This document shows, piece by piece, positions 2,190 to 37,319 of a DNA stretch of 64,000 nt (its first letter is position 1; every line of letters begins with the position of its first letter). The stretch covers positions 4,248,129 through 4,312,128 of the forward strand of contig OZ243961.1 of the NCBI GenBank assembly GCA_965214605.1, written 5' to 3'. The notes under the pieces are model-generated. The model ran no database searches and was not told the origin of the DNA. It worked only from the letters and a program-made list of their open reading frames with translations. Both the position numbers and the translations under genes were made by a program. Source of the DNA: an uncultured Candidatus Binatia bacterium. Its GTDB lineage: Bacteria > Desulfobacterota > Binatia > Bin18.

Positions 2190-2350
2190 AGCTTCGGCAT
2201 GCCTTCCTCGCGGCAGCGGCGGCCACTCGTGGGCTCGCTGTCGTGACGCGGAACACGGGCGGGTTCCGCAACGAAGAGAGATGTGGCTTCCCCTGTACAG
2301 TTGCTGTCGTGACGCGGAACACGGGCGGGTTCCGCAACACCGGCGTCGCG
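2190..2350 (+). pseudogene. PIN/VapC toxin C-terminal fragment with internal duplication
   Basis: AFLAAAAATRGLAVVTRNTGGFRN..TGV matches the VapC C-terminal AxAxxxxLxxVTRNxxxF motif. Confidence 0.7.
2237..2338. repeat. 36-bp direct repeat x2 around a 30-bp unique spacer (mini-CRISPR-like)
   Basis: GCTGTCGTGACGCGGAACACGGGCGGGTTCCGCAAC at 2237-2272 and 2303-2338, identical; spacer 2273-2302. Confidence 0.95.
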
Positions 2351-33771: not shown

Positions 33772-34530
33772 TCAGGGCCCCACTTTCAGGTCGCTTCCGC
33801 CCGCGACCGGTAGGGTAACTCCGGTGATAAAGCCGGCCGCATCAGAGGCAAGAAACGCTACAGCATCGCCAATATCTTGGGGCTGGCCAAGGCGGCCCAT
33901 CGGGATTGTCTTGGCCACGGCGGTTTTTTGTGCTTCGCTCAACGAGCTGGCCATCATCGGTGTTTCAATTGGGCCGGGGGCAACGGCGTTGACCCGGATG
34001 CCCAGCGGGGCAAGTTCATAAGCGAGGTCTCTGGTCAGGGCGACGACCCCTGCCTTTGAGGCGGCATAGGGCACATGGGGTACGGTATAGTGCAGGGCGG
34101 CGATGGAGGCGATATTCACAATCACGCCGCTGCCTTGCTTTTCCATTGCTTGGGCAACCCGGTGACAGCACAGAAACACGCCTTTGAGGTTCACCTCTAA
34201 GACGCGATCCCAGTCGGCCTCGGTCTGGTCGCGCATACGCTTAAGCACAACGATACCGGCATTGTTGACTAAAATGTCAACGCGTCCAAAACGATCAAGC
34301 GTTTGTCTGACTAGTCGGTCTACCGCGTTGGCCTGGGTGACATCGGTTTGGACGCCGAGTGCCTGTACGCCCAACGATTCAAGGTTGGCCACGGTCGGGG
34401 GAATACGCTCCCGGACCGCTTCAGCCACAACAATGGAGGCTCCCGCCCGAGCCAGGCTGAGCGCAACACCCTGGCCAATACCCTGTACGCCACCGGTGAC
34501 AATTGCGATCCGTCCATCAAGTTGTGTCAT
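33772..34530 (-). CDS. SDR oxidoreductase
   Basis: TGGVQGIG, NNAG, YAASK. Confidence 0.95.
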   Translation of the reverse strand: MTQLDGRIAIVTGGVQGIGQGVALSLARAGASIVVAEAVRERIPPTVANLESLGVQALGVQTDVTQANAVDRLVRQTLDRFGRVDILVNNAGIVVLKRMRDQTEADWDRVLEVNLKGVFLCCHRVAQAMEKQGSGVIVNIASIAALHYTVPHVPYAASKAGVVALTRDLAYELAPLGIRVNAVAPGPIETPMMASSLSEAQKTAVAKTIPMGRLGQPQDIGDAVAFLASDAAGFITGVTLPVAGGSDLKVGP

Positions 34531-34820
34531 ACGCCCTCCCTATGATCTATAGACCCGTGCTCCTGACGGCGGCTCAGTTATGGTGGCTCATCGAACCAAT
34601 CGAATAGAATTACGCCGCTCAACCCCGCCCAACATAAAGCGGTGCCAGGCATTGCATCGGTCGGCTCAGTGGCCGCATGGTCTCTAACGAGGCCGGGAAA
34701 TATGCGTTCTCCTGCTGACGCCACCAGATACGACAGGAGGACACTGACAAAGCCCGCCGCTATTGGTCGGTCGTATTGGCACCCCTCCCGTGCCGCACGC
34801 CCCCGTCAAACAGCGGCACC

Positions 34821-34926
34821 GAGCCAGTCGGCATCACACTGCTGATAGGCTACTCCAAGGTTGAGCGGATGACGTTGGCAAAGTGCGCGGGAGCCAGTCG
34901 GCATCACACTACTGATAGGCTACTCC
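34821..34926. repeat. 36-bp direct repeat x2 around a 34-bp unique spacer (mini-CRISPR-like)
   Basis: GAGCCAGTCGGCATCACACT(G/A)CTGATAGGCTACTCC at 34821-34856 and 34891-34926, 1 mismatch. Confidence 0.95.
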
Positions 34927-35540
34927 TTTACGGTGTGTTCCTCAACTGCGGTATGCCTGCCAGGAATCAGTGCGGCGCCGCCGTTGATCGCAGTGGAGGC
35001 GTGAATCGCCCAGAGGACATAAGGCCGCGCCAGCAGTTGGCCACGGACGGGACATCGGATGGATACCGTCGTGTAGATCGTGCTGAGGATTCGCCCGGAA
35101 AAGGGCTGTTCTTCGTCGCTGAGCTGCGTTGAATCCGGTTTTCCAGGGAGAGTGCAACTGATGGCGAAAACGGCGGGTGGGGCTCCACAGGGCGTCCGCC
35201 GAGCAGATTTTGGCTCCCCCATTGTAGATCCGTTCGGTATGAAAGTCCTCAAAGTCGGCACCAGGGAAGTGGTGTGGCAAATCCGGTCCATTTCGGCACC
35301 GACTCCGATCCGCTTGTCGACGTCGAGCAGACTCTCAAGAATCAGAACCAGCCGTCCCGTCTGAGAGGTACTGCATCGTTCGCCACCGCCCGGCGTTCCC
35401 CTGGGCGGACAGCGCTGTACGCCGCTGGGCGTCACACACCCGGGCTACGGATCTTGCCGCTTTTGCGGGGGCTTGACTTACGCACCGGGCCCTATGGTCA
35501 AGGGAGCGATGAGGCCTGGGTTGACACGTCGTCGGCCTGC

Positions 35541-37319
<1,779 letters not shown>

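What the first reader, a model, noticed from the sequence alone, without database searches (positions are those of the whole stretch)
34821..34926. Second isolated repeat-spacer-repeat unit with a 36-bp duplication
Seen: a 36-bp repeat, unrelated in sequence to the one at 2237, occurs twice (1 mismatch) around the unique 34-mer AAGGTTGAGCGGATGACGTTGGCAAAGTGCGCGG. It is partly palindromic (ATCA/TGAT, GAG/CTC). There is no third repeat, obvious leader or cas gene. Two different targets with the same 36-bp duplication length in 64 kb point to a ruler-type integrase. Inference: frequent off-target Cas1-like integration, or an unknown short-DNA capture system acting genome-wide.
Basis: partly seen in the sequence, partly recalled or inferred. 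Interest (0 to 1): 0.78.

Follow-up and report, generated by a model that had tools for sequence, protein, structure and literature searches.

The report
Misplaced CRISPR spacer in dead gene
A 34-base piece of unrelated DNA, flanked by a 36-base duplication of the target, sits inside a decayed gene; it is most likely the scar of a CRISPR spacer-inserting enzyme that missed its array, a known kind of error that this genome shows many times.

Summary
A 36-nt direct repeat (35 of 36 identical) flanks a unique 34-nt insert at 34821-34926, and the 36-mer occurs nowhere else in the 4.37-Mb genome.

It is not a CRISPR remnant or a dispersed repeat. The 36-mer is coding sequence of a PhyH-family dioxygenase gene. 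Five of five relatives examined keep that gene intact, and the four same-genus loci aligned carry one copy of the site and lack exactly 70 bp. In this genome the gene is a multiply broken pseudogene.

The genome encodes five CRISPR-Cas systems with cas1: I-E, I-D, III-B, II-C and V-C. A genome-wide scan found 29 isolated repeat-insert-repeat units (28 unique), and their geometry clusters on the arrays' periods. Eight of 27 inserts copy the genome's own DNA, against 4 of 225 array spacers.

The unit is therefore a fossil of ectopic full-site Cas1-Cas2 spacer integration. This reaction is known from E. coli experiments ("neo-CRISPR") and a few natural cases.

Which integrase made it is unresolved. 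The 36 + 34 geometry lies between II-C (36 + 30) and I-D (37 + 34-41). No protospacer was found.

Verdict: a new member of a known kind. The single scar is of modest interest; the genome-wide load is more notable.

The parts
34821..34856 (.). Copy 1 of the 36-bp target-site duplication. It is native PhyH coding sequence.
   Evidence: In the relatives a single copy of this sequence is contiguous with both flanks.
34857..34890 (.). The 34-bp insert (the 'spacer'). It is absent from relatives and its origin was not found.
   Evidence: it falls in the 70-bp gap in 4 of 4 aligned relatives. No protospacer was found in the own genome, phages, plasmids, 54 family genomes at up to 3 mismatches, or as an exact match in IMG/VR, metagenome or genome contigs.
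34891..34926 (.). Copy 2 of the 36-bp duplication, with one substitution (A at 34911).
34603..35442 (-). Decayed PhyH-family (Fe/2OG dioxygenase) pseudogene that hosts the unit. Besides the 70-bp insertion it has several frameshifts and in-frame stops.
   Evidence: tblastn pieces fall in frames -1, -2 and -3, with stops; the relatives' gene matches Pfam PhyH at E = 1.1e-29; the ORF is intact in 5 of 5 relatives.
2237..2338 (.). This is type II-C geometry, and the insert copies the genome's own DNA.
   Evidence: The protospacer is 30 of 30 identical at G000:C1:1462643-1462672. In reverse orientation the repeat matches the II-C repeat at 18 of 36 positions, p = 0.002.

Best explanation
The unit is the fossil of one ectopic ('off-target') full-site spacer integration by a resident Cas1-Cas2 integrase.

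Inferred mechanism, from the established Cas1-Cas2 reaction:
1. The complex carried a roughly 34-bp prespacer.
2. Its two 3'-OH ends attacked the two DNA strands 36 bp apart inside the PhyH gene, each next to a G on the attacked strand.
3. Gap repair copied the 36 bp between the cuts. The result is 36 (native) + 34 (foreign) + 36 (native), a net gain of 70 bp that shifts the reading frame.

The unit is not a working CRISPR array. Its 'repeat' is ordinary coding sequence with no likeness to any resident repeat, and there is no leader or promoter. The scar persists as neutral DNA in a pseudogene.

What is shown: the insertion is derived, it has integrase-type geometry, and the same process recurs across this genome in step with the resident arrays.

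What is inferred: the enzyme. My odds are I-D or III-B (37-bp repeats) about 60%, II-C (36-bp repeat) about 30%, other about 10%.
For: **1. Empty site.** Four same-genus genomes align across the site with one copy of the 36-mer region and a gap of exactly 70 bp. The PhyH ORF is intact (281-283 aa, no stops) in 5 of 5 relatives examined. Synteny with the neighbouring SDR gene is kept, in one alignment piece.

**2. Enzymes present.** cas1 matches lie beside four arrays and one odd array. NCBIfam assigns complete I-D, III-B with Cas1-Cas2, II-C (Cas9-Cas1-Cas2) and I-E loci.

**3. Geometry.** Array repeat and spacer lengths:

| System | Repeat | Spacers |
|---|---|---|
| II-C | 36 | 29-31 in 14 of 16, plus 37 and 47 |
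| I-D | 37 | 34-41 |
| III-B | 37 | 39-52 |
| I-E | 28 | 33 in 94 of 96 |

This unit is 36 + 34.

**4. Recurrence.** An unbiased scan covered start-to-start distances of 36-200, repeat length at least 24, isolated and non-tandem pairs. It gave 34 pairs, of which 29 have distances of 59-80: 61 seven times, 73 five times, 76-79 nine times, 70 twice and 66 once. The binomial p is 6e-21.

**5. Inserts behave like spacers.** Eight of 27 have full-length protospacers elsewhere in the same genome with sharp boundaries, against 4 of 225 array spacers. Fisher p = 2e-6. This fits non-functional units escaping selection against self-targeting.

**6. Attack sites.** A G lies at both attacked positions: the duplication starts with G and ends with C. 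Guanine is the preferred off-target attack base for a type II-A integrase in vitro (PMC6895254, passages seen).

**7. Age.** Contigs of two public runs from two studies span the whole unit with the insertion. They carry 3 flank SNPs and no difference inside the unit. The scar is therefore fixed in more than one strain.
Against: - No protospacer, and so no PAM, was found for this insert.
- The geometry fits no resident array exactly. Spacer length 34 occurs in 0 of 16 II-C spacers and only 2 of 91 I-D spacers, and the duplication is 36, not 37.
- The 36-mer has no significant likeness to any resident repeat: II-C 13 of 36, p = 0.17; III-B 15, p = 0.07; I-D 11, p = 0.68; I-E 10, p = 0.50.
- Empty-site tests for four other units (2237, C1:916264, 500128, 2197075) were uninformative because their flanks are not conserved in the 5-7 same-genus genomes searched. 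The empty site is therefore shown directly for this unit only.
- Some of the 29 units are probably not ectopic events. C1:2206322 resembles the III-B repeat at 20 of 33 positions. A unit at C1:3644454, seen but dropped by the isolation filter, lies by a cas1 fragment. C4:3868 duplicates C1:3068860.
- No biochemistry was done.
Confidence: 0.85

Rival explanations
1. An unknown, non-Cas insertion process adds a fixed total length (insert plus compensating duplication).
For: Within the distance-73 group the apparent duplication varies (42, 38, 38, 37) while the sum stays at 73. There are two units of sum 70, 36 + 34 and 35 + 35. Many inserts are copies of the genome's own DNA.
Against: Among the well-preserved units of the 37-class, the duplication length clusters more tightly (mostly 36-38) than the sum (70-79). 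This is my own comparison of the listed values. Where protospacers fix the boundaries, the units read 36 + 30, 28 + 33 and 36-37 + 36-37; the last carries one base of boundary ambiguity. The three geometry classes coincide with the three repeat lengths of this genome's own arrays. A process unrelated to Cas would not predict that.
Confidence: 0.06
2. Repair of a staggered double-strand break or a replication template switch produced a 36-bp duplication with 34 bp of filler DNA, with no integrase involved.
For: Filler DNA of unknown origin and a target duplication can in principle arise from fill-in of long 5' overhangs. No protospacer was found.
Against: That mechanism has no reason to produce repeat-length duplications and spacer-length inserts 29 times, peaking at the arrays' periods (p = 6e-21). 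It also would not produce inserts that are exact, sharply bounded 30-37-nt copies of distant loci.
Confidence: 0.05
3. It is a working mini-CRISPR (a neo-CRISPR array or regulatory CRISPR-like RNA) that is transcribed, processed and used by one of the resident effectors.
For: The + strand of the repeat can fold into a hairpin as RNA (-14.9 kcal/mol, z = -3.3). The unit is kept in strains from two studies.
Against: - The repeat is PhyH coding sequence and is unlike all resident repeats.
- There is no promoter-like site in 34400-35600 (0 found).
- The second copy has already lost a stem pair.
- There is no general hairpin enrichment among the 29 units (KS p = 0.86).
- The unit lies in a decaying pseudogene.
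Confidence: 0.03
4. It is a degenerate remnant of a canonical CRISPR array, or a dispersed repeat (REP or MITE).
For: It has the repeat-spacer-repeat layout with CRISPR-like lengths.
Against: There are only two copies in the genome even at up to 8 mismatches. The repeat is conserved protein-coding sequence present once in the relatives. There is no Rfam CRISPR repeat family hit in the window.
Confidence: 0.01

Closest known systems
Non-canonical (off-target) Cas1-Cas2 spacer integration, 'neo-CRISPR' units (Nivala, Shipman & Church 2018, Nat Microbiol 3:310). I saw this paper only through citing passages in 10.1101/148544, PMC6607411, PMC6698737 and PMC7054753. The paper itself is not held.
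   Same: A spacer-sized insert sits at a non-CRISPR chromosomal site, flanked by a repeat-length duplication of the target. The product is non-functional for immunity. The I-E class in this genome shows 28 + 33; that this is the E. coli product is recalled, not seen in a call.
   Different: This is a natural event in an uncultured bacterium, not over-expressed E. coli I-E. The geometry is 36 + 34, pointing to a I-D, III-B or II-C integrase. The genome holds about 28 such scars from at least three geometry classes. The citing preprint speaks only of 'circumstantial evidence' in two other species.
In-vitro off-target integration by type II-A (S. thermophilus, PMC6895254), P. furiosus (PMC6698737) and type III-A (T. 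profunda, PMC13769266) Cas1-Cas2
   Same: The integrase attacks non-CRISPR DNA. Guanine is preferred at the attack site, and a ruler sets the second cut (passages).
   Different: Those events are mostly half-site events on plasmids in the test tube. This one is a completed, repaired, inherited full-site event in a chromosome.
Isolated or orphan mini-arrays away from cas genes (Shmakov et al. 2020, CRISPR J 3:535). I saw the reference entry only. The paper is not held, and its content is recalled.
   Same: Two repeats and one spacer far from any cas gene. As I recall, that survey attributes some such arrays to off-target integration.
   Different: Most isolated arrays carry repeats like those of a cas-linked array. 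Here the 'repeat' is unrelated coding sequence with a demonstrable empty site.
Casposon or transposon target-site duplications
   Same: An integrase of the Cas1 family, or a transposase, duplicates the target on insertion.
   Different: As I recall, known target-site duplications are 2-15 bp and flank kilobase elements with terminal inverted repeats. Here 36 bp flank 34 bp with no element.

Membership tests
Ectopic full-site Cas1-Cas2 integration product (neo-CRISPR unit) | The insertion is derived: related genomes keep a single-copy, uninterrupted target. | tested here: met
   4 of 4 aligned same-genus loci lack exactly 70 bp; the ORF is intact in 5 of 5 relatives.
Ectopic full-site Cas1-Cas2 integration product (neo-CRISPR unit) | The target duplication equals the repeat length of a resident CRISPR system. 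| tested here: met
   The duplication is 36 bp, equal to the II-C repeat (36) and one base short of the I-D and III-B repeats (37). The I-E class units vary by plus or minus 1 (27-29) in the same genome.
Ectopic full-site Cas1-Cas2 integration product (neo-CRISPR unit) | The insert has the spacer length of the same system. | tested here: inconclusive
   34 nt is within the I-D range (34-41, but only 2 of 91 spacers). It is outside the main II-C range (29-31; 0 of 16 at 34, with outliers at 37 and 47).
Ectopic full-site Cas1-Cas2 integration product (neo-CRISPR unit) | Intact cas1-cas2 in the same genome. | tested here: met
   One search gives the cas1 matches. Searches show Cas1 and Cas2 of I-D, III-B, II-C and I-E above the curated cut-offs.
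Ectopic full-site Cas1-Cas2 integration product (neo-CRISPR unit) | The insert derives from a protospacer elsewhere (with a PAM where the system uses one). | tested here: not met
   No protospacer for this insert. The feature is met for 8 of 27 sister units.
Ectopic full-site Cas1-Cas2 integration product (neo-CRISPR unit) | Catalysis by Cas1-Cas2 at this site. | not testable with these tools
   Needs an integration assay.
Canonical CRISPR array or its remnant | The repeat belongs to a repeat family: it is like a cas-linked array, or recurs. | tested here: not met
   no significant likeness to any of four resident repeats; two copies only; no Rfam family; the repeat is PhyH coding sequence.
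Dispersed repeat (REP or MITE) | Many copies across the genome. | tested here: not met
   two copies at up to 8 mismatches.
Tandem duplication by slippage | All duplicated and intervening sequence is ancestral to the locus. | tested here: not met
   the 34-nt insert has no counterpart in the relatives.

The most novel reading that the evidence does not exclude
This genome is a natural record of repeated integrase misfiring by at least three different CRISPR adaptation modules (I-E, II-C, and I-D and/or III-B). About 28 scars survive, and about 30% of their inserts copy the cell's own DNA. Because the scars are not expressed as guides, they would show the unfiltered spectrum of what the integrases capture, before selection against autoimmunity. 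They would also show that CRISPR adaptation is a measurable source of insertion mutations, including one at the 3' end of a type III-B cas gene. A still bolder version is that the two units of period 70 (36 + 34 and 35 + 35) come from an integrase or process not among the five resident systems.
Probability: 0.45. Interest if true: 0.65.

Novelty: new member of a known kind. Interest (0 to 1): 0.45.

Why it matters
Off-target spacer integration has been shown mainly with over-expressed E. coli Cas1-Cas2 and in the test tube. Clean natural cases with a demonstrable empty site are few.

This case gives one such proof. It also places the scar in a genome where the process can be counted: about 28 scars, classes that match the resident arrays, and a 20-fold excess of self-derived inserts over the arrays.

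That makes three things testable in nature:
- the cost of CRISPR adaptation as a mutagen;
- the true share of self DNA among captured spacers;
- how precisely different integrases keep their ruler when the repeat's guiding motifs are absent.

The single scar itself has no function and sits in a dead gene.

Tried and rejected
- **Protospacer and PAM for the 34-mer.** Nothing beyond chance 14-24-nt matches in the own genome, phages, plasmids or 54 family genomes at up to 3 mismatches. There were 0 exact matches in IMG/VR, metagenome contigs and genome contigs. The exact scans would miss diverged protospacers.
- **Assigning the integrase by likeness of the 36-mer to resident repeats.** Not significant. 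In register with the II-C repeat I noticed a shared GCTA at positions 29-32 and a G at position 1. This is post hoc and I do not rely on it.
- **Hairpin or cruciform preference of ectopic sites.** No enrichment in 29 units.
- **Empty sites for four other units.** Their flanks are not conserved in the relatives searched.
- **In-silico removal of each unit to see whether a gene is restored.** Mostly uninformative in this GC-rich DNA.
- **Population polymorphism.** Contigs of runs X1 and X6 carry the insertion. X2 and X7 contigs end inside copy 1, which a repeat longer than the assembler's word would cause. No contig joins across an empty site. Contigs cannot show absence of a minority form.
- **Missing IHF as a reason for low fidelity.** Three DNABII genes are present. 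The IHF-alpha-like and IHF-beta-like matches score 109 and 102 bits, both under the cut-offs of about 120. This gives no evidence either way.
- **I-E PAM from self protospacers.** The flanks are not consistent among four units. I did not pursue this.
- **Papers.** Nivala 2018 and Shmakov 2020 are not held. Supplements were not consulted.

Full report
**The observation**

Window 34821-34856 and 34891-34926 hold a 36-nt direct repeat, 35 of 36 identical. They flank the 34-nt insert at 34857-34890, which reads exactly as reported. The bases just outside the two copies differ on both sides, so the duplication is exactly 36 nt and the period is 70.

The window is G000:C1:4248129-4312128. Allowing up to 8 mismatches on both strands, the 36-mer occurs only at these two places in the 4.37-Mb assembly. 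The same is true of the 2237 repeat. A pair like this is expected about 4e-11 times by chance. No Rfam family, CRISPR repeat families included, matches the window.

**What the site is**

A search of 40 relatives with window 34300-35500 found four same-genus genomes in which the two flanks are contiguous. In the alignment all four carry a single copy of the 36-mer region and a gap of exactly 70 columns, one repeat plus the insert.

In the relatives the site lies inside a 283-aa gene that matches Pfam PhyH (phytanoyl-CoA dioxygenase family) at E = 1.1e-29. That ORF is uninterrupted in 5 of 5 relatives examined: four of the same genus and one of the same family.

In the window the orthologue lies on the minus strand, between a short-chain dehydrogenase gene (33772-34530) and a flavin monooxygenase gene (35541-37319). 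It is a pseudogene. Its pieces fall in three frames with in-frame stops, in addition to the 70-bp frameshifting insertion.

The 36-mer is therefore native coding sequence, the empty site is ancestral, and the insert plus duplication is derived. This excludes a CRISPR remnant, a dispersed repeat and simple slippage.

**The genome's CRISPR systems**

Pfam Cas1 matches lie at five loci, plus two fragments. NCBIfam scans of the neighbouring ORFs identify four systems:
- a complete type I-D locus (Cas10d, Csc2, Csc1, Cas3', Cas6, Cas4, Cas1d, Cas2);
- a type III-B Cmr locus with Cas1 and Cas2;
- a type II locus of Cas9-Cas1-Cas2 without csn2 or cas4, that is II-C;
- a complete I-E locus.

The fifth cas1 sits beside a 25-nt-repeat, 18-19-nt-spacer array. 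I did not re-test that.

Array geometry:

| System | Repeat | Spacers |
|---|---|---|
| II-C | 36 nt | 29-31 in 14 of 16, plus one of 37 and one of 47 |
| I-D | 37 nt | 34-41, mode 37-38, n = 91 |
| III-B | 37 nt | 39-52, n = 24 |
| I-E | 28 nt | 33 in 94 of 96 |

**Recurrence across the genome**

I scanned for direct-repeat pairs with a start-to-start distance of 36-200 and length at least 24. I kept only isolated pairs (no other pair within 400 nt) that were not tandem duplications. This gave 34 pairs.

Twenty-nine of them have distances of 59-80, and only 5 lie elsewhere. Among the 29, distance 61 occurs seven times, 73 five times, 76-79 nine times, 70 twice and 66 once. With 22 of 165 distances in that band, the binomial p is 6e-21.

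By geometry the 29 fall into these groups:

| Group | Count | Notes |
|---|---|---|
| I-E-like (27-29 + 32-34) | 9 | |
| II-C-like (36 + 30) | 1 | window 2237 |
| Period 70 | 2 | this unit, 36 + 34; C1:916264, 35 + 35 |
| 37-class (33-42 nt duplication, distance 73-78) | 12 | C4:3868 is the reverse complement of C1:3068860, so 11 unique |
| Odd (25-27 nt apparent duplication, distance 64-79) | 5 | some extend to about 37 nt when mismatches are allowed |

Not every unit need be ectopic. C1:2206322 resembles the III-B repeat at 20 of 33 positions. A unit at C1:3644454, seen but dropped by the isolation filter, lies by a cas1 fragment.

**The inserts behave like spacers**

Of the 27 isolated-unit inserts searched against the genome, 8 have full-length protospacers elsewhere in it. 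The 2237 insert is 30 of 30 identical to C1:1462643-1462672. Where the flanks of unit and protospacer differ, the boundaries are sharp: 36 + 30 and 28 + 33. A third case reads 36-37 + 36-37, because one base fits both sides.

By contrast only 4 of 225 array spacers match non-array DNA of the genome. Fisher p = 2e-6. This is what one expects if the ectopic units are not expressed as guides and so escape selection against self-targeting. That reading is an inference.

The I-E class repeats are each mildly similar to the I-E repeat (p = 0.001-0.07). The 2237 repeat, in reverse orientation, matches the II-C repeat at 18 of 36 positions (p = 0.002).

**Mechanism**

The best-supported explanation is one ectopic full-site integration by Cas1-Cas2. 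The two 3' ends of a roughly 34-bp prespacer attack the two strands 36 bp apart, and gap repair duplicates the interval. This is established knowledge of the integrase, applied here by inference.

Both attacked positions carry G on the attacked strand, because the duplication starts with G and ends with C. The chance of that from base composition is about 0.085. Guanine is the preferred off-target attack base of a type II-A integrase in vitro, and a ruler sets the second cut (PMC6895254, passages seen).

**Which integrase made it**

This stays open.
- For II-C: the duplication is exactly 36 bp.
- Against II-C: 34-nt spacers occur in 0 of 16 II-C spacers. The 36-mer is unlike the II-C repeat (13 of 36, p = 0.17). 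Only one other unit in the genome has II-C geometry.
- For I-D or III-B: this class has made most of the long-duplication scars. Duplication length varies by plus or minus 1-2 in both the I-E and the 37-nt classes. A 34-nt spacer is within the I-D range. Target sites of this class generally show no likeness to the repeat.

My odds are I-D or III-B about 60%, II-C about 30%, other about 10%. The shared '36' of the two units in this window may therefore be coincidence.

**Function and age**

The unit has no leader. There is no promoter-like site in 34400-35600, and the repeat is unrelated to any resident repeat.

Its + strand can fold as an RNA hairpin (z = -3.3). With DNA parameters it is unremarkable (14.5th percentile), and the 29 units as a set show no hairpin enrichment (KS p = 0.86).

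One substitution separates the two copies. Contigs of two public runs from two studies span the whole unit with the insertion. They differ at three flanking positions and at none inside the unit, and no contig joins across an empty site. The scar is thus fixed in more than one strain, and it sits in a gene that has decayed further.

**Rivals**

It fits less well here, for three reasons:
- among well-preserved units of the 37-class, duplication length is tighter (mostly 36-38) than the sum (70-79) (my comparison);
- protospacer-defined boundaries give integrase-type numbers;
- the classes mirror the resident arrays.

Break repair with filler DNA does not predict the recurrence or the sharply bounded copies. 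A working mini-array is unlikely for the reasons given under function and age.

**Comparison with what is known**

Off-target integration that creates 'neo-CRISPR' units was shown in E. coli by Nivala, Shipman and Church (2018). I could not read that paper. Citing passages say that:
- such events give no functional immunity (PMC6607411);
- they were detected by shotgun sequencing (PMC7054753).

In-vitro off-target integration is reported for type II-A, P. furiosus and type III-A integrases, where HU suppresses it (PMC13769266). Shmakov et al. 2020 on isolated arrays is not held. That it attributes some mini-arrays to off-target integration is recalled.

Earlier notes of this scan report the same footprint in other genomes, so the scan has found this kind before on other DNA.

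**Verdict**

The unit is a real, derived, integrase-type insertion scar, and a new natural member of a known kind. The single scar is functionless. The genome-wide load, its match to several co-resident systems and the excess of self-derived inserts are the more interesting result.

Noticed in passing
G000:C1:1692733-1692843 (L013 3034-3144): An isolated unit (about 34-nt duplication, period 77) overlaps the 3' end of the type III-B Cmr6/Cmr1 fusion gene (L013 3085-5484, minus strand). Removing one repeat plus insert in silico lengthens the open frame across the site from 229 to 807 codons. An ectopic integration seems to have altered the end of a cas gene.
   Followed up: partly
G000:C1:1691840-1691871 (L013 2141-2172): The insert of the I-E-geometry unit at C1:1399850 copies 32 nt of the CARF gene (TIGR02710 family) inside the type III-B cas locus. 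One system's integrase sampled another system's cas operon.
   Followed up: no
G000:C1:528854-529970 (L014 855-1971): Every repeat of the II-C array ends with TGCTATACT, an extended -10-like motif. The array's sense strand is opposite to cas9-cas1-cas2. As I recall, this is the repeat-internal promoter arrangement known from Neisseria type II-C. The two cas-proximal spacers are unusually long (47 and 37 nt).
   Followed up: no
G000:C1 arrays: III-B spacers at 1689179 and 1689492, I-E spacers at 2305693 and 2302033, I-D spacers at 3926733 and C2:1136: Spacers of different systems overlap each other by 21-27 nt: III-B with I-E, III-B with I-D, and I-E with I-D. Different adaptation modules sampled the same stretch of the same invaders, possibly through cross-system priming.
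   Followed up: no
G000:C1:2534815-2534962: A three-repeat mini-array with perfect I-E repeats lies about 227 kb from the I-E cas operon, on the opposite strand. It is an orphan array with true repeats, unlike the ectopic units.
   Followed up: no
G000:C4:3868-3978 and C1:3068860-3068970: The same unit (38 + 35) is present on a 14.6-kb contig and, reverse-complemented, on the chromosome. It is either a repeated element that carries a scar or an assembly redundancy.
   Followed up: no
G000:C1:916770-916858 (L016 971-1059): A pair of roughly 30-nt repeats that recurs dozens of times in each of three same-genus genomes (43 matches each in G001, G004 and G005). It looks like a REP-type dispersed element of the genus.
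   Followed up: no
window 35227-35262: A 36-nt stretch 61% identical to the duplicated 36-mer lies 336 nt downstream, inside the same pseudogene. I take it as chance and did not test it.
   Followed up: no
G000:C1:912965-916333: Two isolated units (912965 and 916264) and the protospacer of a third (915880-915912, for the unit at 4089123) lie within 3.4 kb. This may be a local hot spot for both capture and misintegration.
   Followed up: no
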